A stretch of 30,722 bases of DNA, taken from assembly GCA_030044695.1 (NCBI GenBank), contig JASIDM010000102.1:1-30722 (forward strand), written 5' to 3'. Shown here piece after piece: positions 1-16,373 of the stretch (position 1 is its first letter; every line of letters starts with the position of its first letter). The DNA comes from Thermoplasmata archaeon. GTDB taxonomy: Archaea; Thermoplasmatota; Thermoplasmata; Lutacidiplasmatales; UBA184. Under the pieces are notes generated by a model, which worked only from the letters and a program-made list of their open reading frames with translations, had not been told where the DNA came from and did no database searches. The translations under genes were made by a program, and so were the position numbers.

Positions 1-1
1 C

Positions 2-418
2 TGCGTCGGGAACGCGTGCCGCTCGCTGATGGCCGAGGCGATGTTCAACGCGCGGCCTCCTCCCGGATGGACGGCGGTCTCGGCCGGCACTCAGCCTGCG
101 GGCGCGGCGAACCCCCGGACCTCCCCGATGCTGGCGGAGATCGGCCTCACGGTCCCCGGTCATCCACCTCAGCTCCTGACCGAGGCGATGATGGACGAGG
201 CCCGTGTGAGGATCACCATGGGCTGCCTCGACGACGGGAGCTGTCCGGCGCACCTGAAGGGGCTCGAGCTGCGGGACTGGGCGCTTCCCGACCCTGCTCG
301 GCTGGACGACGCGGGGTTCCGACGGGTGCGCGAGCAGCTGCGGGGCCACGTCGAGGGCCTCCGCCGCGAGCTCCTCCTCGCCGACCGGCGCCGGGCCGCG
401 TTGCTCGCCCACCCGTAG
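2..418 (+). CDS. arsC: Arsenate reductase, LMW-PTP (thioredoxin-coupled) type; 5'-truncated by the window edge
   Basis: The frame is open from nt 2 and reads CVGNACRS-LMAEA (CX5R P-loop). It also has SAGT, a redox Cys pair MGCLDDGSCP, and WALPDP...FRRVREQL. Confidence 0.88.
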   Translation, partial: CVGNACRSLMAEAMFNARPPPGWTAVSAGTQPAGAANPRTSPMLAEIGLTVPGHPPQLLTEAMMDEARVRITMGCLDDGSCPAHLKGLELRDWALPDPARLDDAGFRRVREQLRGHVEGLRRELLLADRRRAALLAHP

Positions 419-6895: not shown

Positions 6896-7390
6896 TTGGA
6901 TGAGGGGCGCAGGGTGGTCCAGATGGGGTTCAGTGACATGCTGAACACTGTGCCGAACAGGGCTTGGCCGTGGCTCCTCCTGACTCTTGGCGTGGTCGCC
7001 TCCCCGGCGCTCGTAGCGATTCTCGCTAGTTTGGATTTCGGACCACACCTTTCGCCGGGAAGACTATGGATAGGCGTAGTTTTCATATCTGCAATCTACG
7101 CAGGCGTCGTAGGAGTGTTCACCTGGGCCTACTCGTACAGAGCTCCGACGAGCGTTGTCATCACAGACTCCGGGGTGCGATGCGTCATCCGATTCTCGCC
7201 CCTAAAGCGATTTGCGCCCAGGAGTCTCGACATCGCCTTCGATCAGGTACGCTCCATACATGCGTTGTTTCCGTTCTGGGCCGTACGTTTCAATACGCCC
7301 GTAGGCGGGACATGGTTTGTGTACTTGTCGCGGAAGAACGCCCTGACGGCTCGAGAAGCGTGGAAGACGTGGAAATCCAGCGTAGGATGA
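6896..7390 (+). CDS. 2-TM protein with PH-like soluble domain; putative orphan immunity protein
   Basis: Two TMs followed by RAPTSVVITDSGV, resembling SAPMALSIGDSAA in 14581. GC is visibly lower than the flanks. The real start may be ATG 6923. Confidence 0.6.
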   Translation: MDEGRRVVQMGFSDMLNTVPNRAWPWLLLTLGVVASPALVAILASLDFGPHLSPGRLWIGVVFISAIYAGVVGVFTWAYSYRAPTSVVITDSGVRCVIRFSPLKRFAPRSLDIAFDQVRSIHALFPFWAVRFNTPVGGTWFVYLSRKNALTAREAWKTWKSSVG

Positions 7391-7793
7391 TCCGCTAGTT
7401 CCCGCGAGTTGCGGGCGCGGCACGAGCGCACGTCGAGTCGTCGGGAGGGCTCGCACTAGGACAGTTTCTCCGACACCTGGGCCCAGATGACCCCGTGGGG
7501 CGGAGTGCTGTTGAGCCCATCGTATCGAGTACTGCCCCCGAACTCCTCTCCCCGCCTTCGAACCGGTAGGTTCACGATCCCGCGCGTGCTCCGTGCAACC
7601 TCACGACTCGGGGCCATGACGACCCACGCTGCGGGGTGCAGGGGTAGCCCACCTCGTGGGGACCATCCCCCAGAACCGACAACCTGACCGAGGTGAACGC
7701 CACAATCGTGAGGCTGGACCAACCTCGGGATTTCGCCCGACGTCAGAACGTCTGGCAGCGGGAGCCGGCGTCCACGTTGGGCCCGGATCCCGC

Positions 7794-7837
7794 GCTCCGA
7801 TCGCGTCGCTCCTAAGGCCCTGTCTGAGCCGCCAGAG
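7794..7837. repeat. 44-bp direct repeat, distal att-like copy of the tRNA-Thr 3' end plus trailer
   Basis: GCTCCGATCGCGTCGCTCCTAAGGCCCTGTCTGAGCCGCCAGAG matches 16268-16311 at 42 of 44 nt. Confidence 0.92.
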
Positions 7838-8031: not shown

Positions 8032-11000
8032 ATGGAGTACGGCAAGTGGCGGGCACGTACGTCACTGTTTCGAAACTGTCTGCCGAACTTGACGACTCCG
8101 ACATGTTTTTCTATCGATAGGCGGTCACCCCCGCTGGGGCAGCAGGGGTGCCGGGACCCCGGCTCGACTCCGAACGGAGGCGGAGTGGCCGACCCGGAGG
8201 AACGCGCTCGAGGGCCCGAGGGCCAGCCCGCGGTTCTCCAGCGCGGGCGTGACCCGAGGGTGCCTTGCATCCGAGAAGCTGACTTCAAGGCCGGGCCCGC
8301 GGAGTATCGGTCGCGGAAACGGTGGCCCGGTCGAGGAACCTACTGGGCCAGGGGCCGTTGGGTCGCCCTCGCCGTGTTCTGTTCCGCCCTGATGCTCCTC
8401 ACCTACCAGAGCCCGAACGTCGCGGCGGAAGGAGGTGGCGGCGGTTCGGGAGGGGGAGGGAACGACTCCATGACCGTGCCGTCGTACCCCTACGACGTTC
8501 CGGTCTCGGACTACCCGACGGCCGCCATGCTCCCTACCCGCTCGAACGTCACCGGGGTCGCCGTGGCGCTGCTCCCGGGCTCGCTGACCTCGTACGCCGT
8601 CGTCTTCGCGACAGCGAACAACTCCACGGGCGTGACCAACGCGACCCTGGACTACGCGCAGGCAAGCTACAGTCCCCTCGACGCGAAGGAGATCGTCGCG
8701 AACGGCAGCTGTGGGCTCACGTGTGGCGACCTCCCCATCAACTGGTCGGACAGTTCGGTCGTCGCCTCCTCCTCGAGTCCGTGGTCCGGCCTCCAGATCG
8801 CGGCCATGGGGACGGAACTCGTCGTCGGGGCCACGACGGGCAACGTTACGCATCTCTACAACTGGTCGACCGAGGCGACGGCGTGGGCACCGTTCGGACC
8901 CACCGCCCCGGGCGTCCTCTCCTCAATGGCCGCCGAGCCGTACGCCCTGGTCTTCGCCACGCTCGCGGGAGGCGAGACCGAGCTGAGCACCTTGGGAACG
9001 GAGGGAGCCCTGCTCGGACAGGCGGAACTGGGTCCCGGGCAGACCGAGGATCGAACCGTCCTCAACGCGAGCGTGGTGTTCGTTCCGGAAGGTTCGGGGT
9101 ACGACGAGGCGCTGGTGATCTCGGTCGCGTATCCGAGCCAGATCCTCTTCAGCCAGAGCGCCGACGGCACCTCGTTCTCCACCCCGACCCCCGTCGTGAA
9201 CTTCACTGCCTCCCTGTCAGACTCCCCGCTGCCGAGTGTCGGCCTGACCTCCACGGTCATCCCGGGAGGGCGGGCCGGTCAGCTCGATCTCACGGCGATC
9301 GGCGGCCAGCTGTTCCTGCTCTACACGACGGATGTCTCGGGCCAGACCGTGCCGGCGACGGAAGTGTCGGGGACCTACGGCAGCACCTGGAGCGGCCCGT
9401 ACTTCACCGGTCCCTTGAACGGGACCGCCGTCGACCCGGTGCTGTCGGTAGGACCCACGGGGATCGTCGACGCCGCCTGGCTCGACCCTGCCTACGACTC
9501 GGGGGCTATCGAGGTGGCAACCTACTTCGCCGACGGAACCCCGCTCGACGCCCCCGAGACGGTCCTCTCGTCCGTCGCGGTCGGCCCCACCGCGGAGGGG
9601 CCACCGGTGCTGGCGGTGGACGCCCTCGGTCGTCCCCTGGTCCTCTGGTCGTGGTCGGTGAACTCGACCCCCTCGCTCGGCTACACCGGCGGATATCTTT
9701 CCGCGGAGGCAGCCCTCGCGTATCTCGAGACCCAAGCGACGGAGAGCCTGGGCGGGCCGGACTTTGTGGGCGACCCCGGGGGTGTCTCGCCCGCCGAGGC
9801 GTCCTTCGACACCAACGTGAGCGGCACGGTGCCGCAAGCCGAGGCAGACCTCTCCTCGACCGGACTCTGTGACGCCCAGAACCTGACCCTTACCGTCTAT
9901 CAGAACGTCACGCACGACCCCCTGTCGGTCCAGAACGGCACGGGCACGGTCTGTGCGGCCGACGAGGCGCCCGGCACGGCGAGTTCGCCGCTTCTTACGA
10001 CCCAAGGCGAGGCCGCCCCCAACACCTACCTGGCCGTCTACACCGACTGGGCGCTCGAGGCCGAGGGAATCCCGGTCACCGGCTCGCCCCTGGCCGGGCT
10101 CGCCCCGATTGCCCCGTACGATGAACTGCTCCCGGTGGCCAGCCTGCCACCCACGTCCGAGGACCCAGAGACGGTCCAGGGCGAGACGATCTCGCTCGCG
10201 GCGACGCCGATCCCGTACAGCCCTACCTCCTACGAACTGGCGGTCTCCGGGACCCTGCCGGGGTGGCATCTCGAGGACAATCTTCCGGTCCGATGCCCGT
10301 CGGGAGAGGAGGGGGAGTATCGGACCGGCGGGTCGACCGCCGTGACGAGCGTCTGGGAGACCATCTGGGTCGACGGCGAGGAGCTGGGGACCGTCGACGG
10401 CACCACCTCCTACCCCTCGGTCTGGGTCTACGATCTTGTCCCCGACGAGTCGTACACCTGGTCAATCGGGTTCCACGCGTCCACAACGTCGACGGGCAGC
10501 ACGTACGACAGCTGCGATGGGGTCACCACCCCGTACAGCGCCTCGCCGGGCATACCCGAGGGCTTCGCCCTCTCGGTGAGCGGGAACTTCTCCACGACCC
10601 TGTCGATCACGGCAGGGTCGAGCCTCGTCACGGCGTCGTTCGATCCCGACCAGACCGCCGCCAGCCTATCGACGAGCTTCGGGACCACGCTGCCGACGCT
10701 CGCCTGGGCGAACCTGACGAACCTCTCCGGAGGAGCGCGTCAGTCGGTGGGATCGGACGGCTTCGCGACCTCGCAGGCGTTGACGCTCCCGGACGAACTC
10801 GGGTCCGGGCTCAACTACACGCTCAGCCTCGTGGGCACGAGCCGGCCGGGGACCTCGACCCCTCCCGGTTCGCCCGCCGTGGCCTACCCTGGGGACGGAA
10901 ACTCCTCGGCCGAGCGGGCGACCACGAGCTGCTCGTTCACCGTCTCCAGCAGCCTGCCCAGCGTCTGGACGGCCGCCGCCGGCCCGATCTGGGGGCAGGG

Positions 11001-14000
11001 CGGCTCCACCACCGTGGACGTCTCCTGGTTCTCCGACGTCGACGCCCCGGGGTTCCTCACCTACGGCGAACAGGGGTCGGCCCTCGACACCACGATCTCG
11101 GAGGTCCCGCCGACCTGGGAGAGTTCGGACGTCTGGAACTACACGGTCGAGCTGCACGGACTGGAGCCGACGGCGACGTACGTCGGCTCGGTCGGGGTCG
11201 AGACGCAGCAAGGCTGCCTCACGAACCAGGACGAGGTGCCGCTCCCCACGTTCGGCACGTCCTCCACCCTACTTCGGGGCGCCAAGCCGTGGACCGAAGA
11301 CCTGCCGTATGACTCGGTCACGCAGTCCGGAGGGGGGATCGAGGTCGAGTGGAGCCGTCCGAGCGGGCTGAAGAACGGGACCGTCGAGGGTGGGGTGGCC
11401 ACGATCAGCACCTCCAGCGCCGCCTGGCTGTTCCCGTTCGCCCCGGAACAGGTGACGGGAGGGTCCGGAGCTCCGTTCGAACTCGAACTTGCCCCTCCGT
11501 TCAACAACAGTCAGACGTATACTGTGAGTCTGGAGGTGAACTACACCACGTTCACGTCGCCCGTCTTCTCGAAGGTGTCCGACGAGGAGACCTACCACGC
11601 CGACACGAGCGGCAACGGGCTCACCGACGCCGAGCAGGTGGAGGGATGGGACGTGGACATCGAACCGTGCTCTGCCTACAACGGGACGAAGACGACCTGC
11701 GGGGTGCATGTGCACGCCAAGCAGGGGGCCTACTCGACGAACGGTCTGGCGAGCGACTATCTGGAGAAGGAGCTCGACCTCGATCCGAACACGTTCGACA
11801 CGGCCTCGAGCGGGATGCTCGACCTGTGGAACCTGACGTTCAGCTTGAACGGGAGTGGCGGGACCGAGGAGCCGCTGCCCGCCGGCGTCGAAGCGTGGTG
11901 GGAGAACGGGAGCCTCGATCCGTTCGCCGGGGCGGAGTATCCTGGTGGGCCCGTGCTCGGGGGGGTACCCCTGGCGACGAACCTAACGAACCTCTCGTGC
12001 TCGGCGTTCAGTTGCGCGGGCAACTCCTCGTGGTCTTCGGAGGTGCTCTGGTCGTACGCCGCGCTCCAGGCGTTCACGGAGATGGCGGGATACAAGGCGG
12101 CCACGAGCGACGGAGGGGTGCTGCGGGGCGTCGTGGGGTCGTGGAGGGGGGTTCCCACCCTGACGCTCTGGGGGAAGATGTCCTGGGGAGCGGACCCGCT
12201 CACCAGCTCGACCCCGGACGACGGGTTGGCCGACGGCCGTCGGGTCAACCCGACGGCCGTGGAGGATCTGGACCTGAACGTCAGCTGGGCTCAGGTCTGT
12301 GTCGGGAACCCTTACTCGTCCCCGTTCAACTGGGCGCTGCACTACACGGTCGCTCCCCGCGCGTTGCCGGGCTCTCCCGAGGACCAGGGCTACTCCTACG
12401 AGATCGAGACGACAGCCTACGGAGGAAGCTGTTCGGGGTTCAACTATCAGGTCACGCTCCCGGTCAACAACACCCGACCGTCCCAGAAGGTCACGTTCTC
12501 GTTCGTCGGGAACCTTCACGGGGACGTCGACGACCTGCTGCCGACCTCGACGTGCGCGCCGGAGCTGACGGTCGACTACGACCTGCTGGTCGGGGGCACC
12601 CAGAACCTATCGCTCGATGACAACTGCAACAGCTCGGAGCTGGCGTTCTCGCTCAACGTCTCGGTGAGCGCGGTGGACCTGGGGGCGAAGGTCCCGACGT
12701 ACCTCCTGGTGCCCCCAGGGGACGGCACGCTGAGGACGCTACCGGACGGACAGTCGGAGTATGTGGGGGAGGACGCCTTCGACGTGGTGGTCGTGAACGT
12801 GAACTCCACGACCCCGGTGACCTCGGACCCGATCCCCGAGCCGGACAGCGCCTCGACATACCAGCTGACGCTGCAGCCGGGACCGAACGCGTTCTTGGTC
12901 CCGAGGACCCAGTTCCTGAACACGACGCTGGGGTATGCCCTGCTGCGGAACGAACCGATGCCGGAGCCGAGCCCGTTCTGGAGCGACACGGCCCCGCTCA
13001 TCGGGTCGGCGGAGGCGGAGGCGATGCAGAACCTGACGGGCGACAACTGGGAGGGACCGTTGGGGTCGCTGTCGTGCTACTGGCAGCAGCGGTCCCTGCC
13101 GGAGACTCCAGAGGACAGCGACTCGTCCGGAGTCTGTGGCTTCCCGGAGGGCGGGGTGCTCGACACCAGCCCGGAGTTCGTGAACGTGAACCTCGACGGG
13201 GCGAACGCCACGAGCACGAACGCGGGGGGGTTGCCTTCCGACCCCACCCTGGAGGACGCGACGGATGCCGGGGGCTCGCTGCAGGGGCTCTTCCTGGTGA
13301 ACGTCAACAACACGACATACGACAACCTGACGACCGGTCAGGAGGTCAATCTCGGACCGGTGCCGAGCCTCGATCTCCTGCTGGCGGCGCTGCTGGACAA
13401 CACGACCGAGGGAGTCAACGGCACCATCCAGGAAGTGACTCCTCAGCTGTATGGGCTCGGCCTCTCGTGGGCGGTGCTCACGGCAATCCCCAACGCGACG
13501 CTGGTCTACTCGGCGGTCTACGGCCCACCGACGGAGGTCCAGACGTCGCAGACCGGCGGTTGTTCCTGGCTCGGATGCGTCTGGGAGGCGCTGACGAGCA
13601 TCCCGGAGTGGTTCGTCTACGGTGTGGGCTACTTCTTCTCGGGCGACTGGATCGTGACGTTCGAGGGTTGGGCGGCGTCGGTCAGCCCCGAGCTGTTCAA
13701 CATGCTCAATGGGTTCTTCGAGGGCGTCTGGCACCTGATCGTCGACTTCGCTTCGGTGGTAAACGGGCTCTTCACGGAATTCGGGCGCCTGGTGGAGGGG
13801 GCGTTGGACTCAGCCCTGAACCTCGTGATGGGCTTGGAGGAAAGGGTGCTCGATGCCGCACTGTCACCCTACAACTCCCTAAGATCTGCCTTCGGCAGCG
13901 GAGTCGATGGCGCGGTGGATCCGACGGGGTCGGGCCAGGTCTGGAGCTCACTCTCAGGCCCGCTCTTCTCCGGAGCGTTTCTGGTAGCAGTAGTACTTCA

Positions 14001-14553
14001 GATCGCTACCGGCGTTATCACGGCTCTGTCGCTCGGAGCCGACTTTTTGGTGAACATTCTAGTTAGTCTAGTGTTGGCACTTGGCGTGAGTGCCTTGCTC
14101 TACACTCTGCCTTCGCTAAGTTCCCCGTCCCCATCGATGGTTTATGCGTCTCAGGACTTCGCCGATGAATTCCACTCGCAGGCTGCCCAAGAGAGTAACT
14201 GGACAAGTTGGGCTGACGCCTTTGGGTATTGGGAGAATGGCCTGTCCGACTCTTACGCCGCAGGTCAACTGACTGCCGCTTGGTCCGATGTGAAGGTGAG
14301 TGACTTTGCGTTCGGTGCTCAAGCAGCCTCATTCGCATTCGCCTTAGAGGGGTCAGCTATGGAGTTCTACGCCCAGCACGGTGGCGGTATGCTGGCAACA
14401 ATCTCCGGTATCGTTCTCGGGATGATCAGCGTGCTGCTCGAGATTCCCGGGCTCCTTAAGCCGAGCCCGACGCGAATGCTCGACGGGGCAATATTTGGGC
14501 TGGATGGATCTACTGTTGGGATTAGCATCGCAGAACTAAAAGCTGGGTACTGA
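8032..14553 (+). CDS. Giant secreted protein; putative polymorphic toxin with hydrophobic helical C-terminal domain
   Basis: Signal-like RWVALAVFCSALMLLTY and a Gly linker. FN3/purple-acid-phosphatase-N-like segment (VDVSWFSD...LTYG...VELHGLEPTATY, about 11010-11200). Degenerate TSP3/DxDxDG-type motifs (DTSGNGLTDAEQ at 11602; GADPLTSSTPDDGLADG at 12187). Paired cysteines and a ~330-aa amphipathic/hydrophobic tail. The real start is probably GTG 8185 or 8260. Confidence 0.7.
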   Translation: MEYGKWRARTSLFRNCLPNLTTPTCFSIDRRSPPLGQQGCRDPGSTPNGGGVADPEERARGPEGQPAVLQRGRDPRVPCIREADFKAGPAEYRSRKRWPGRGTYWARGRWVALAVFCSALMLLTYQSPNVAAEGGGGGSGGGGNDSMTVPSYPYDVPVSDYPTAAMLPTRSNVTGVAVALLPGSLTSYAVVFATANNSTGVTNATLDYAQASYSPLDAKEIVANGSCGLTCGDLPINWSDSSVVASSSSPWSGLQIAAMGTELVVGATTGNVTHLYNWSTEATAWAPFGPTAPGVLSSMAAEPYALVFATLAGGETELSTLGTEGALLGQAELGPGQTEDRTVLNASVVFVPEGSGYDEALVISVAYPSQILFSQSADGTSFSTPTPVVNFTASLSDSPLPSVGLTSTVIPGGRAGQLDLTAIGGQLFLLYTTDVSGQTVPATEVSGTYGSTWSGPYFTGPLNGTAVDPVLSVGPTGIVDAAWLDPAYDSGAIEVATYFADGTPLDAPETVLSSVAVGPTAEGPPVLAVDALGRPLVLWSWSVNSTPSLGYTGGYLSAEAALAYLETQATESLGGPDFVGDPGGVSPAEASFDTNVSGTVPQAEADLSSTGLCDAQNLTLTVYQNVTHDPLSVQNGTGTVCAADEAPGTASSPLLTTQGEAAPNTYLAVYTDWALEAEGIPVTGSPLAGLAPIAPYDELLPVASLPPTSEDPETVQGETISLAATPIPYSPTSYELAVSGTLPGWHLEDNLPVRCPSGEEGEYRTGGSTAVTSVWETIWVDGEELGTVDGTTSYPSVWVYDLVPDESYTWSIGFHASTTSTGSTYDSCDGVTTPYSASPGIPEGFALSVSGNFSTTLSITAGSSLVTASFDPDQTAASLSTSFGTTLPTLAWANLTNLSGGARQSVGSDGFATSQALTLPDELGSGLNYTLSLVGTSRPGTSTPPGSPAVAYPGDGNSSAERATTSCSFTVSSSLPSVWTAAAGPIWGQGGSTTVDVSWFSDVDAPGFLTYGEQGSALDTTISEVPPTWESSDVWNYTVELHGLEPTATYVGSVGVETQQGCLTNQDEVPLPTFGTSSTLLRGAKPWTEDLPYDSVTQSGGGIEVEWSRPSGLKNGTVEGGVATISTSSAAWLFPFAPEQVTGGSGAPFELELAPPFNNSQTYTVSLEVNYTTFTSPVFSKVSDEETYHADTSGNGLTDAEQVEGWDVDIEPCSAYNGTKTTCGVHVHAKQGAYSTNGLASDYLEKELDLDPNTFDTASSGMLDLWNLTFSLNGSGGTEEPLPAGVEAWWENGSLDPFAGAEYPGGPVLGGVPLATNLTNLSCSAFSCAGNSSWSSEVLWSYAALQAFTEMAGYKAATSDGGVLRGVVGSWRGVPTLTLWGKMSWGADPLTSSTPDDGLADGRRVNPTAVEDLDLNVSWAQVCVGNPYSSPFNWALHYTVAPRALPGSPEDQGYSYEIETTAYGGSCSGFNYQVTLPVNNTRPSQKVTFSFVGNLHGDVDDLLPTSTCAPELTVDYDLLVGGTQNLSLDDNCNSSELAFSLNVSVSAVDLGAKVPTYLLVPPGDGTLRTLPDGQSEYVGEDAFDVVVVNVNSTTPVTSDPIPEPDSASTYQLTLQPGPNAFLVPRTQFLNTTLGYALLRNEPMPEPSPFWSDTAPLIGSAEAEAMQNLTGDNWEGPLGSLSCYWQQRSLPETPEDSDSSGVCGFPEGGVLDTSPEFVNVNLDGANATSTNAGGLPSDPTLEDATDAGGSLQGLFLVNVNNTTYDNLTTGQEVNLGPVPSLDLLLAALLDNTTEGVNGTIQEVTPQLYGLGLSWAVLTAIPNATLVYSAVYGPPTEVQTSQTGGCSWLGCVWEALTSIPEWFVYGVGYFFSGDWIVTFEGWAASVSPELFNMLNGFFEGVWHLIVDFASVVNGLFTEFGRLVEGALDSALNLVMGLEERVLDAALSPYNSLRSAFGSGVDGAVDPTGSGQVWSSLSGPLFSGAFLVAVVLQIATGVITALSLGADFLVNILVSLVLALGVSALLYTLPSLSSPSPSMVYASQDFADEFHSQAAQESNWTSWADAFGYWENGLSDSYAAGQLTAAWSDVKVSDFAFGAQAASFAFALEGSAMEFYAQHGGGMLATISGIVLGMISVLLEIPGLLKPSPTRMLDGAIFGLDGSTVGISIAELKAGY

Positions 14554-14580
14554 GGGCGCATCACTCCAGTTGGCAGCATC

Positions 14581-15141
14581 ATGGAAGCGTACGGGTTTCC
14601 GGAGCTCGCATCCGGTTTGGAGGCACTCAATCGACCGAAGCGACTCTTGTTGCTCGGCTGGGGGGTATTCAGCGTGATTGTTGGACTCGTTGGAGCGTGG
14701 TTGGCGCTGTCCGGTCTCTCGTTCGACTTTGCCATTCTCCTCATCGCCGGCGTTCCAGGCACGGGAGTCATCTGTTTTGCGGCGGTAATCGCCTTCCCGA
14801 GCGCGCCCATGGCCCTCTCGATTGGGGATTCGGCAGCAAGTTTCAGGATGCGCGACGGTTCCACTAGAGAACTCCACTGGGCGGACCCACCCTCAGACTT
14901 GCTCGTCTACGATATGAGGCCACTTGGTTCAACGTGGGAGGACAACGTCACCCCACGCACCATCGACTTTGTGCTCATAAGCTTCCGATCTCGGCTCCGC
15001 GCCGCTATCCCGCTCGACGCGATGCGTAGCCTGGTGATGACCGCGAGGGAAAACGGCGTAGTCGTTCTGGGGTGGGAAGATACCGTCTCGAACCTCGGCC
15101 CACCAATCAAGGTCCGATTCCGAGCGCGACCGCCCTCCTGA
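14581..15141 (+). CDS. 2-TM protein with PH-like domain; putative cognate immunity protein
   Basis: Starts 27 nt after the giant ORF. Two TMs, then beta-strand-like APMALSIGDSAASFRMRDGSTRELHW and the helix AAIPLDAMRSLV. Confidence 0.65.
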   Translation: MEAYGFPELASGLEALNRPKRLLLLGWGVFSVIVGLVGAWLALSGLSFDFAILLIAGVPGTGVICFAAVIAFPSAPMALSIGDSAASFRMRDGSTRELHWADPPSDLLVYDMRPLGSTWEDNVTPRTIDFVLISFRSRLRAAIPLDAMRSLVMTARENGVVVLGWEDTVSNLGPPIKVRFRARPPS

Positions 15142-15722
15142 CCGTGCTCACGATCGTGGAAGGCGTCGTCCCCGGGGCAGGCTTCATCTTGGGCCTGCTT
15201 GTGAGCGCGCTCGTGTCGGCGGGGGTGCAGGACGCGATCTCGCACTCTCCGCTCGGTGCTGCCTCGCTGGGAGAGTCCCGAGACATCGGCGATGCGGCGA
15301 CGGTGATCCGCGACGCCATCTGTTCGGTCGACCAAGCGAGCTATGAGGCCGCGTGTGGGAACTCCTCCCTCCTGGGCGGATTCTCGGCCGTGGGGTCCGC
15401 GGTTTCCGACGTCGGTGCCTATGCGAGTAGCGGCCTGGCCGGGGAGTTGATCGCCCAAGGGACCGCGAATGACCCCCTCTTCAACGTCGAAGTGGGGTTT
15501 GCCCTGGGGATCTGCGGCATCGCGTTCGCCGGCTATGCGTTTTCGAACAAGGACTGGCAGACTGCCCTCGTCGGCGCGGTAGTTTCCTGGACAGGGTTCA
15601 TCATCGATGAAATCACTCCAGACTTCAATGAACCGTCGCTTGACACCCTTGACACCCTGAGCACGTACATTGACTTCGCGACCGCTCTTGGCTCAACCGC
15701 AGAGTTGGTCGGCTCCTTGTGA
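15138..15722 (+). CDS. Orphan C-terminal module homologous to the last ~190 aa of the giant protein
   Basis: Aligned by eye: GAGFILGLLVSALVSAGV vs GADFLVNILVSLVLALGV, and LDTLSTYIDFATALGSTAEL vs LDGAIFGLDGSTVGISIAEL. Possible GTG start at 15144; may be untranslated. Confidence 0.7.
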   Translation: MTVLTIVEGVVPGAGFILGLLVSALVSAGVQDAISHSPLGAASLGESRDIGDAATVIRDAICSVDQASYEAACGNSSLLGGFSAVGSAVSDVGAYASSGLAGELIAQGTANDPLFNVEVGFALGICGIAFAGYAFSNKDWQTALVGAVVSWTGFIIDEITPDFNEPSLDTLDTLSTYIDFATALGSTAELVGSL

Positions 15723-16267
15723 GGTGGTTCGTGGCTCTCCCTTCCACCGTCCGCTTTGACCTACGTGAACTGCAGGCACGCGCGTGGCGGGCGAGGCAGG
15801 ATCGGCAGAAGTATTTTGTGATGATCGGTGGCCTCGTGCTCATCAATCTCCTGTTCTTCGCAATCTACTACGTCAGGTTCAGCACGCAAGGTCTGAACCC
15901 ATCCACCGAGTTTACTCTGCTTCCTCTCCCGTTCTTGGAAGTCCCGTTCGTCCTAGCACCACTCTCCCTGGCGCAAGGCGCCCACGAGTTGGTTCTGTTG
16001 GACAACGCCATCATACTCCTCTACCCGTCCTCGAAGCAGCGGGTCTACGATCTGACGCGCTCTCGGTGTCACCTAACGATTCGGGGCCATGACAATCCAA
16101 CCTATGGCGTGCGCCAATGGCGAATCTCGGGGGGCCTTCCGTTTAGATCCTACATCCCTCCCGAAGCCAAGGTCGCGATCCTGGACTTGGTCCAGCGTCG
16201 GGGGTTCCCACTACGTCAGAGGGCCTGGCAGGGCGAGACGGTGTTCACGTTCGGTCCGCGGTCCTGA
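15719..16267 (+). CDS. 2-TM protein with PH-like domain; putative immunity protein of the orphan module
   Basis: GTGA start/stop overlap with the orphan. VLLDNAIIL and SYIPPEAK match SIGDSAASF and AAIPLDAM in 14581. The stop abuts the direct repeat. Confidence 0.65.
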   Translation: MRWFVALPSTVRFDLRELQARAWRARQDRQKYFVMIGGLVLINLLFFAIYYVRFSTQGLNPSTEFTLLPLPFLEVPFVLAPLSLAQGAHELVLLDNAIILLYPSSKQRVYDLTRSRCHLTIRGHDNPTYGVRQWRISGGLPFRSYIPPEAKVAILDLVQRRGFPLRQRAWQGETVFTFGPRS

Positions 16268-16311
16268 GCTCCGATCGCGTCGATCCTAAGGCCCTGTCCG
16301 AGCCGCCAGAG
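16268..16311. repeat. 44-bp direct repeat, tRNA-proximal att-like copy
   Basis: Last 11 nt of tRNA-Thr plus 33 nt of 3' trailer; 42 of 44 identical to 7794-7837. Confidence 0.92.
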
Positions 16312-16373
16312 AGAATCGAACTCCCGACCTGCTGATTACAAATCAGCCGCTCTACCGACTGAGCTATGGCGGC
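16301..16373 (-). tRNA. tRNA-Thr(TGT)
   Basis: GCCGCCA/TGGCGGC acceptor stem, D arm, anticodon arm GCTGAT-TTGTA-ATCAGC, GGGAG-TTCGATT-CTCTC T arm; CCA not encoded. Confidence 0.96.

What the first reader, a model, noticed from the sequence alone, without database searches (positions are those of the whole stretch)
15138..15722. Orphan tip is a divergent homologue of the giant protein's C-terminus and is itself mosaic
Near-gapless matches by eye: GAxFxxxxLVSxxxxxGV; FAFALEGSAMEFYA vs FALGICGIAFAGYA; LDxxxxxxDxxTxxxSxAEL at both termini. It starts right at the upstream TGA with no trunk. GC falls from about 68% at the 5' end to 64/120 at 15541-15660, hinting at nested replacements. Its stop overlaps the next start (GTGA), preserving coupling to its partner.
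Basis: seen in the sequence. Interest (0 to 1): 0.78.

Follow-up and report, generated by a model that had tools for sequence, protein, structure and literature searches.

The report
Displaced truncated tip of archaeal giant protein
The small reading frame is the leftover rear two-thirds of an older C-terminal "tip" that was pushed downstream, together with its intact partner gene, when a new tip-plus-partner cassette was spliced into a giant surface-protein gene of a peat Thermoplasmata archaeon. This is the orphan-module pattern known from bacterial polymorphic toxins, here built from undescribed protein families.

Summary
The quoted motifs, GC values, upstream TGA and GTGA overlap are all in the sequence.

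Homology to the giant's C-terminus is real but not provable pairwise (BLASTP E 0.007; shuffle z 2.5-3.8). It is established in two ways:
- A profile built only from 32 homologues from outside this genome scores the giant tip at 260 bits and the orphan at 90 bits. Shuffles of the orphan reach at most 7.
- A second contig of the same genome, C103, carries the intact version. It is 91% identical to the orphan and is fused to a trunk fragment 94% identical to the giant.

The orphan covers only profile positions 96-283 of 286. Homology begins at 15125, inside partner1's last codons and in the middle of the first membrane helix. GTG-15144 is a conserved internal valine codon, not a demonstrated start.

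Mosaicism is real, but the GC dip is not what shows it. The C103 copy shares the dip, and third-position GC stays high until about 15590. Block-wise synonymous divergence from the C103 copy ranges from 0.017 to 1.85.

Best reading: a displaced remnant of a polymorphic tip/partner cassette system. The tip is probably membrane-active and the partner immunity-like, but that function is inferred, not shown. It is a new variant of a known kind.

The parts
8032..14553 (+). Giant surface-protein gene (2173 aa). The glycosylation-sequon-rich trunk runs to about 13750. Tip1 is 13751-14553.
   Evidence: The trunk has 49 N-x-S/T sequons and the tip has 1; the tip carries hydrophobic helices. Relatives are annotated as IPT/TIG or hypothetical proteins of Thermoplasmata archaea.
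12557..13750 (+). Trunk segment shared with contig C103 (94.4% nt identity, sharp edges on both sides). It is a potential 5' homology arm.
   Evidence: dS 0.162, dN 0.026.
13751..15124 (+). Incoming cassette: tip1 plus partner1. It replaces the 256 nt that encode the first 85 residues of tip2 in C103.
   Evidence: GC3 is 0.64 (tip1) and 0.70 (partner1) against 0.88 in the trunk.
14581..15141 (+). Partner1: two membrane helices plus a beta-rich domain. Its last five codons and its stop lie in tip2-derived DNA.
   Evidence: It scores 57.9 bits against a partner HMM built from six partners outside the window; shuffles reach at most 8.6.
15125..15722 (+). Orphan: the 5'-truncated tip2 remnant.
   Evidence: It is 91% identical in protein to the C103 tip. 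It covers HMM positions 96-283 of 286 at 90 bits. Contigs from four peat runs bridge the 15125 junction with no mismatch.
15621..15826 (+). Hypervariable patch 1: the last ~33 codons of the orphan tip plus the first ~36 codons of partner2.
   Evidence: Identity to C103 is about 70% and dS is 0.49-0.58, against 0.13 upstream.
15719..16267 (+). Partner2, intact. The start conserved with C103 is probably GTG 15731.
   Evidence: It scores 46.1 bits against the partner HMM; shuffles reach at most 5.4. The AF2 model has pLDDT 78.7.
15827..16058 (+). Near-identical block between the window and C103 copies, read as recent gene conversion.
   Evidence: There are 2 mismatches in 232 nt. The longest mismatch-free run is 170 nt, against a permutation maximum of 108 in 10,000 trials. 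dS is 0.017.
16059..16143 (+). Hypervariable patch 2, inside partner2 (about residues 114-142).
   Evidence: Identity is 60-70% and dS is 1.85.
16253..16311 (+). Right copy of a direct repeat (left copy at 7779-7837). The pair brackets the whole 8.47-kb unit and abuts tRNA-Thr (16300-16373, minus strand).

Best explanation
Window 15125-15722 is a displaced, 5'-truncated remnant of an older C-terminal 'tip' (tip2).

Proposed history:
- An ancestral gene read trunk, then tip2, followed by partner2. That arrangement survives on contig C103.
- A lower-GC3 cassette carrying tip1 and partner1 (13751-15124) recombined in. On its 5' side it joined at the trunk/tip boundary. On its 3' side it joined illegitimately inside tip2's first membrane helix.
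- The rear two-thirds of tip2 and the intact partner2 gene were pushed downstream.

Consequences:
- The remnant is most likely not an independent effector gene.
- Partner2 is kept intact. By inference it acts as an immunity-like or specificity protein against neighbours that display tip2.
- The remnant plus partner2 forms 1.15 kb of homology to C103, and the trunk supplies a further 1.19 kb. A double crossover or gene conversion with C103 could therefore restore a trunk-tip2 gene.
- The 232-nt near-identical block shows that exchange between the two loci has happened.

What is shown: the homology, the truncation, the junctions, the mosaic pattern, the conserved tip-to-partner adjacency, and recurrent truncated tips and arrays in related genomes.

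What is inferred: that the helical, hydrophobic tip is a membrane-active polymorphic effector or recognition domain, that the 2-TM partner neutralises or recognises it, and that cassette switching actually occurs.
For: - Sharp homology breaks. C103 462-1655 matches window 12557-13750 at 94.4% and C103 1912-3065 matches 15125-16278 at 88.9%. Between them lie 256 nt in C103 and 1374 nt in the window.
- Tip2 is contiguous in C103 and in an independent metagenome contig, L012. This makes the window copy the derived, truncated one.
- The external-only HMM scores the giant tip at 259.6 bits, C103 tip2 at 145.4 bits and the orphan at 90 bits, the orphan over positions 96-283 only.
- dS of the orphan's 5' part (0.128) is close to dS of the trunk segment (0.162), so the two diverged together. 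Other blocks range from 0.017 to 1.85.
- GC3 is 0.64-0.70 in the incoming cassette against 0.88 in the trunk.
- Nine of 11 tip loci in other genomes of the order have a partner-family ORF directly downstream.
- 46 of 151 genomes of the order carry the tip family. Many of these matches are C-terminal-only fragments or tandem arrays.
- L012 has one tip, four partner genes and a transposase.
- The main form and the C103 form occur at about 1:1 depth in four peat runs, and the 15125 junction is bridged without mismatch.
- The bacterial precedent: orphan rhs-CT fragments lack initiation and export signals and are reactivated by recombination over a 522-bp region of 95% identity (PMC3967940).
Against: - No toxin domain, known fold or known family was recognised in the tip. 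Pfam, PDB sequence and Foldseek searches were all negative.
- A Sec-exported protein that ends in hydrophobic helices would by default simply be membrane-anchored.
- No delivery machinery was identified.
- The orphan frame is still open. ω is 0.20 against C103, and the orphan branch shows no excess of amino-acid changes (3 against 5). A residual function of its own is therefore not excluded.
- C103 and C134 are linked only by binning and equal depth, not by a single molecule.
- Some tip loci (L011, L023) lack a recognisable partner.
Confidence: 0.75

Rival explanations
1. The orphan is a functional stand-alone gene. A roughly 190-residue membrane protein is translated from GTG-15144 (or 15072) by coupling to partner1's stop, and works with partner2.
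For: - The frame is open for 192-216 codons.
- ω is 0.20 over 15141-15620.
- The orphan branch shows no excess of amino-acid changes.
- Only 2 nt separate partner1's TGA from the GTG.
Against: - It lacks about 95 of 286 family positions and half of the first membrane helix.
- GTG-15144 is an internal Val codon in the intact copy.
- The frame has no ATG and there is no Shine-Dalgarno-like motif upstream.
- Open frames are long by chance at this GC content.
- The low ω can be inherited from the still-functional C103 lineage and from recent divergence.
Confidence: 0.12
2. The tips are ordinary C-terminal membrane anchors of giant surface glycoproteins and the partners are membrane accessory proteins. 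The truncated copies are neutral debris of duplication and recombination, with no role in conflict or recognition.
For: - The trunk is exported and sequon-rich, while the tip has a helical hairpin plus a third hydrophobic helix.
- No toxin fold was found.
- The complex prediction gave no verdict.
Against: - A plain anchor has no evident reason to combine a 94%-identical trunk with a tip only about 30% identical at a sharp junction.
- The tip type co-varies with the partner type.
- Partner-only arrays sit beside a transposase.
- The distribution is patchy, 46 of 151 genomes.
- The cassette has lower GC3 than the trunk.
- Hypervariable patches are concentrated at the tip's C-terminus and in the partner.
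Confidence: 0.2
3. The arrangement is an artefact of assembly or binning: a chimeric contig joining two strains' alleles.
For: The genome is a 182-contig, 72%-complete MAG. Logan contigs break at 15163, where the two copies become near-identical.
Against: - Contigs in four runs span 13627-15163 with 0 mismatches, reaching 38 nt past the junction.
- C103 has a different, unrelated 5' flank: a divergent minus-strand gene beginning 140 nt upstream of the trunk homology. Its 3' flank also differs.
- Both forms have about equal depth in all four samples.
Confidence: 0.03

Closest known systems
Orphan rhs-CT/rhsI and cdiA-CT/cdiI modules of bacterial polymorphic toxin loci (e.g. Salmonella Typhimurium STM0292; PMC3967940)
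   Same: - A large exported protein with a conserved body and a sharply variable C-terminus.
- A small cognate gene directly downstream.
- Displaced, 5'-truncated CT fragments with intact downstream partners.
- A high-identity stretch that permits recombination with the main gene: 1.19 kb at 94% here, 522 bp at 95% in Salmonella.
   Different: - The host is archaeal (Thermoplasmata).
- The trunk has no Rhs/YD, FHA, VENN, PAAR or LXG signature.
- The tip is an undescribed all-helical hydrophobic domain rather than a nuclease, deaminase or similar enzyme.
- The short orphan keeps no trunk sequence at all. The trunk-bearing donor sits at a second locus.
- Toxicity and immunity are untested.
Pore-forming or ionophoric polymorphic effectors with membrane immunity proteins (pore-forming colicins with Cai/Cia/Cei, CdiA-CT of E. 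coli EC93, T6SS effectors such as Tse4/Ssp6). This comparison rests on general knowledge.
   Same: A hydrophobic helical effector paired with a small integral-membrane partner.
   Different: No sequence or fold similarity was detected. The partner has 2 TM helices plus a beta-rich, possibly PH-like, cytoplasmic domain.
Proteus mirabilis IdsD/IdsE self-identity pair (general knowledge)
   Same: A membrane-embedded variable protein is recognised by a cognate variable membrane partner. Variability is concentrated in short patches.
   Different: There is no homology, the Ids proteins are delivered by a T6SS, and there is no giant trunk.
VARTIG module of Thermococcales (PMC8416519)
   Same: An archaeal large surface protein with a recombining hypervariable C-terminus and variable downstream genes. 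The authors compare it to polymorphic toxin systems.
   Different: The VARTIG variable part is an Ig domain, whereas here it is a helical membrane domain with a 2-TM partner. That study reported no VARTIG-like modules outside Thermococcales.

Membership tests
Polymorphic toxin-type locus with orphan modules (architecture class) | A conserved body joined to a sharply divergent C-terminal domain | tested here: met
   Nucleotide identity of 94.4% up to 13750 falls to about 32% amino-acid identity beyond it.
Polymorphic toxin-type locus with orphan modules (architecture class) | A small cognate gene immediately downstream of each C-terminal domain | tested here: met
   Partner1 and partner2 belong to one family, at 57.9 and 46.1 bits. 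Nine of 11 tip loci in other genomes have a partner ORF directly downstream.
Polymorphic toxin-type locus with orphan modules (architecture class) | Displaced 5'-truncated CT fragments that keep their downstream partner | tested here: met
   The orphan covers HMM positions 96-283 of 286. Further fragments occur on C94 and in many related genomes.
Polymorphic toxin-type locus with orphan modules (architecture class) | The C-terminal domain is toxic and is neutralised by the cognate partner | not testable with these tools
   This needs expression or competition assays. The complex prediction gave no verdict.
Rhs / CdiA / LXG / MafB toxin families | Family-specific trunk or pre-toxin signatures (YD repeats, FHA, VENN, PAAR, LXG, Hint) | tested here: not met
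   Pfam finds only a sub-threshold FN3-like Pur_ac_phosph_N match in the giant and TIG domains in relatives.
Thermoplasmata C-terminal helical 'tip' domain (unnamed family defined here) | A significant match to a profile of family members, located at the protein's C-terminus | tested here: met
   The orphan scores 90 bits against a shuffle maximum of 7.2. There are 91 representatives with E<=1e-3, and the match reaches the C-terminus in most of them.
Thermoplasmata C-terminal helical 'tip' domain (unnamed family defined here) | Full-length domain (about 286 positions, including the long N-terminal helix and both hairpin helices) | tested here: not met
   The orphan starts at profile position 96, in the middle of the first hairpin helix.
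Colicin-type pore-forming domains | The ten-helix globin-like bundle fold, or sequence similarity to it | tested here: not met
   No PDB or AFDB match has E<1, and TM-scores are below 0.35 by the query. The model has moderate confidence (pLDDT 70.5).
Bacterial 2-TM + PH (bPH) proteins, considered for the partner | A PH-like beta-sandwich with a C-terminal helix, following two TM helices | tested here: inconclusive
   The AF2 model shows strands plus a helix after the TM region. The best AFDB hits are named PH-domain proteins, but only at E 0.03-0.35 with TM below 0.35. There is no Pfam hit. The atlas search gives a lead to bPH_7 and DUF5381 only.
VARTIG (Thermococcales) | A hypervariable C-terminal Ig domain | tested here: not met
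   The tip model is entirely helical.

The most novel reading that the evidence does not exclude
The main locus and C103 form a two-locus cassette-switching system in an archaeon.
- C103 is a promoter-proximal but export-signal-less donor carrying a complete tip2-partner2.
- It is flanked by 1.19 kb of homology to the trunk and 1.15 kb of homology to the orphan plus partner2 at the expression locus.
- The short orphan is therefore retained as the 3' homology arm that lets the cell swap the displayed tip, much as silent cassettes do in antigenic variation.
- The tip family would be a new class of membrane-inserting, contact-dependent effector or identity determinant of Thermoplasmata.
Probability: 0.25. 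Interest if true: 0.75.

Novelty: new variant of a known kind. Interest (0 to 1): 0.55.

Why it matters
Polymorphic toxin-like systems in archaea are known almost only from computational surveys, and none of this membrane-tip type is described.

This locus preserves both the "before" state (C103: trunk-tip2-partner2) and the "after" state (window: trunk-tip1-partner1-Δtip2-partner2) of a tip replacement. The junctions are mapped to within a few bases, and there is evidence of later gene conversion between the two loci.

The locus also defines two unannotated protein families in peat Thermoplasmata: a helical tip of about 286 residues and a 2-TM partner. Both could be tested directly for contact-dependent antagonism or kin recognition in archaea.

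Tried and rejected
- Direct BLASTP and Smith-Waterman comparison of the orphan with the giant's C-terminus was too weak to decide.
- BLASTP of partner1 against partner2 was not significant (E 0.77). The question was settled only by a profile.
- Pfam on the giant, orphan, partners and 47 tip sequences found no family.
- A PDB sequence search with the tip profile returned only an E 0.05 hit to a 66-residue Rhs1 transmembrane fragment. This was judged compositional.
- Foldseek of the tip model against PDB and AFDB clusters gave nothing below E 1.
- Foldseek of the partner model gave only weak PH-like leads.
- The protein-atlas search of the tip was at noise level.
- Complex prediction on the orphan plus partner2 gave no verdict (score 0.00). 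It is not evidence either way.
- A metagenome-contig scan for close tip2 relatives found none.
- A search of 179 other genomes of the family for the tip2 type found none at E<=1e-10.
- A Shine-Dalgarno pattern scan was uninformative at this GC content.
- The Makarova 2019 mBio paper on archaeal polymorphic toxins could not be retrieved.

Full report
**Layout**

On the + strand the window carries, in order:
- a 2173-residue ORF at 8032-14553, called the giant here;
- a 186-residue ORF with two hydrophobic helices at 14581-15141 (partner1);
- the finding, an open frame from 15072 or 15144 to 15722;
- a 182-residue 2-TM ORF at 15719-16267 (partner2);
- a tRNA-Thr on the minus strand at 16300-16373.

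The window is contig C134 of a 1.32-Mb, 182-contig, 72%-complete MAG with 72.6% GC. The nearest named relatives of the giant are hypothetical or IPT/TIG proteins of Thermoplasmata archaea. The runs that hold the sequence are peat metagenomes.

**Checking the observation**

The GC figures are right: 0.708 at 15120-15239 and 0.533 at 15540-15659. The TGA at 15139-15141, the GTG at 15144 and the GTG/TGA overlap at 15719-15722 are all in the sequence.

Taken pairwise, the similarity is only marginal:
- BLASTP gives E 0.007 over 44 residues.
- Smith-Waterman scores lie 2.5-3.8 SD above shuffles, and 4-14 of 500 shuffles reach the observed score.

**Homology is nevertheless real**

Two independent routes establish it.

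First, the same genome holds contig C103.
- Its 719-codon open frame ends in a tip 91% identical to the orphan.
- That frame matches the giant's residues 1880-2173 end to end (32% identity, E 1.5e-14).

Second, a profile search of 1.84 billion representatives with the genome's tips found 91 proteins at E<=1e-3, of 54-2618 residues. The match reaches the C-terminal end in most of them. I built an HMM from 32 of these external sequences only and scored the following:

| Sequence | Bits | Profile positions |
|---|---|---|
| Giant's tip | 259.6 | 13-286 |
| C103 tip | 145.4 | 8-283 |
| Orphan | 90.0 | 96-283 |
| 1000 shuffles of the orphan | at most 7.2 | - |
| Giant's trunk | about 0 | - |

**What the orphan is**

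DNA comparison gives the anatomy.
- C103 462-1655 equals window 12557-13750 at 94.4%, with sharp edges on both sides.
- C103 1912-3065 equals window 15125-16278 at 88.9%, without gaps.
- Between these matches C103 has 256 nt that encode the first 85 residues of a contiguous tip2. The window has 1374 unrelated nucleotides instead, namely tip1 plus partner1.

An independent metagenome contig, L012, also has the tip2 type as one contiguous domain followed by a partner2-like gene. Contiguity is therefore ancestral and the window copy is the truncated derivative.

The 3' junction at 15125 lies inside partner1's last five codons. Partner1's stop codon is itself tip2-derived sequence read in another frame. 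The junction also lies in the middle of tip2's first hairpin helix. GTG-15144 is an internal valine codon present identically in C103, and the frame has no ATG.

C103's own frame begins about 37 codons upstream of the trunk homology, next to a divergent minus-strand gene, and has no signal peptide. C103 is therefore a long orphan that keeps 1.19 kb of trunk.

**Assembly check**

- In four peat runs, contigs cover 13627-15163 or similar spans with no mismatch, which bridges the junction.
- The C103-type join appears in all four runs at depths of 23.9, 11.1, 10.8 and 5.5. The main form has depths of 29.5, 13.2, 9.8 and 5.7, roughly 1:1, as expected for two loci of one genome.
- Depth roughly doubles over the shared 15.1-16.05 kb region.

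These are contigs from a single study, so they support the arrangement but do not prove it.

**Mosaicism**

The 128 mismatches between the window and C103 copies are strongly clustered.
- 15827-16058 has 2 mismatches. Its longest perfect run is 170 nt, against a maximum of 108 in 10,000 permutations.
- 15621-15826 and 16059-16143 are only 60-75% identical.

Synonymous divergence differs by two orders of magnitude between blocks:

| Block | dS |
|---|---|
| Trunk, 12557-13750 | 0.162 |
| Orphan, 15141-15620 | 0.128 |
| Orphan, 15621-15719 | 0.49 |
| Partner2, 15722-15826 | 0.58 |
| Partner2, 15827-16057 | 0.017 |
| Partner2, 16058-16144 | 1.85 |
| Partner2, 16145-16264 | 0.35 |

Because dS itself varies, this is a recombination mosaic and not merely uneven constraint. 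The orphan's 5' part has a dS close to the trunk's, which fits one duplication of trunk-tip2-partner2 followed by local exchanges.

The GC argument is weaker.
- The dip is identical in the C103 copy.
- GC3 stays at 0.77-0.90 until about 15590, so much of the dip reflects an Asp/Asn/Ile/Phe/Thr-rich sequence.
- GC3 falls to 0.67 only in the last ~43 codons, which overlap hypervariable patch 1.

**Direction and age of the replacement**

GC3 is 0.88 in the trunk, which is host-like (the urocanase gene has 0.86). It is 0.64 in tip1, 0.70 in partner1, 0.79 in the orphan and 0.74 in partner2. This fits tip1-partner1 being the more recent import.

**Is the remnant decaying?**

ω is 0.20 over 15141-15620. 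With L012 as outgroup, 3 amino-acid changes fall on the orphan branch and 5 on the C103 branch. There is no sign of decay, but the numbers are small and divergence is recent. A residual function cannot be excluded.

**The system around it**

Partners form one family. An HMM of six partners from outside the window scores partner1 at 57.9 bits and partner2 at 46.1 bits, with shuffles at or below 8.6. They share three features:
- an N-terminal R-F-D-L-like strand;
- two TM helices;
- a beta-rich domain ending in a conserved helix.

The AF2 model of partner2 has pLDDT 78.7 and gives only weak PH-like leads.

The tip model is all-helical, with a long N-terminal helix, a hydrophobic hairpin and three further helices. 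Its pLDDT is 70.5. It has no Pfam, PDB-sequence or fold match.

The genome holds at least two further giant paralogues:
- C153;
- C37, which has its own partner and a 941-codon long orphan.

C94 carries another truncated tip plus partner next to an IS3-like transposase.

Across 151 genomes of the order, 46 carry the tip family. Matches include giants, mid-length long orphans, many C-terminal-only fragments and tandem arrays. In 9 of 11 fetched loci a partner-family ORF follows the tip directly. L012 carries one tip, four partner genes and a DDE transposase. The tip2 type itself was not found in 179 other genomes of the family.

**Mechanism**

The architecture is that of bacterial polymorphic toxin loci with orphan modules, in which displaced CT fragments lack initiation and export signals and are reactivated by recombination with the main gene (PMC3967940). 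I therefore read the finding as a displaced tip remnant.

Its likely significance is twofold. Both points are inferred.
1. It marks a past tip replacement, and the intact partner2 is retained for protection or recognition.
2. Together with partner2 it provides the 3' homology that, with the trunk homology, would let C103 convert the expression locus back to tip2.

Topology reasoning places three elements on the cytoplasmic side:
- the tip's last ~35 residues;
- the partner's N-terminus;
- the partner's beta-domain.

These are exactly where the hypervariable patches lie, which is compatible with a specificity interface. This is inference only, because the complex prediction gave no verdict. Whether the tip is a membrane-damaging toxin, an identity determinant or only an anchor is open.

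**Correction on coupling**

The GTGA overlap is real. In C103, however, an in-frame TAG precludes any start before GTG 2518, which corresponds to window 15731. That GTG is preceded by TGAGGTG in the window and TGAGGTA in C103. The conserved partner2 start is probably 15731, 8 nt after the orphan's stop.

**Verdict**

- The object is a new variant of a known kind: an orphan module of a polymorphic C-terminal cassette system, in an archaeon and built from undescribed families.

Noticed in passing
window 7779-7837 and 16253-16311; tRNA-Thr 16300-16373 (-): A 59-nt direct repeat (86% overall, with a nearly identical 44-nt core) brackets the whole 8.47-kb giant/partner/orphan/partner unit. The right copy abuts the 3' end of tRNA-Thr, which gives island-like boundaries.
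   Followed up: partly
window 13751-13940: Homology to C103 breaks at about 13750, but GC3 stays near 0.90 until about 13850 and drops to 0.53-0.63 only from about 13940. Tip1 may therefore itself be composite.
   Followed up: partly
window 6896-7390 (+): A 164-codon ORF with hydrophobic helices lies outside the left repeat. It scores only 8.9 bits against the partner-family HMM, against a shuffle maximum of 8.5, so membership in the partner family is not supported by this test.
   Followed up: partly
G000 contig C94 4858-6019 (-) (L009 1858-3019): Another truncated tip (about 110 residues, 33% identical to the giant's tip1 C-terminus) is followed by a partner 33% identical to partner1. It sits next to an IS3-like transposase gene.
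   Followed up: partly
G000 contig C37 9506-21037 (-) (L008): A second giant (2429 codons) is followed by a partner, and then by a 941-codon long orphan (trunk fragment plus full tip). This is the same array logic as at the window locus. C153 carries a third giant (2262 codons).
   Followed up: partly
L012 (JGI metagenome contig, 5135 nt): A tip2-type orphan (54% identical to the window's orphan) has a partner whose start overlaps its stop (GTGA). Three further partner-family genes without tips and a DDE transposase fragment follow, an arrangement like an immunity-gene array.
   Followed up: partly
window 8032-13750: The trunk has 49 N-x-S/T sequons (2.6 per 100 residues), against one in the tip. 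This fits a heavily N-glycosylated extracellular body with a non-exposed tip.
   Followed up: no
L010 (C103) 1-330 (-): A divergent minus-strand gene for a small membrane protein starts 140 nt upstream of the trunk homology. This leaves an intergenic region that could hold a promoter for the export-signal-less 716-residue C103 frame.
   Followed up: no
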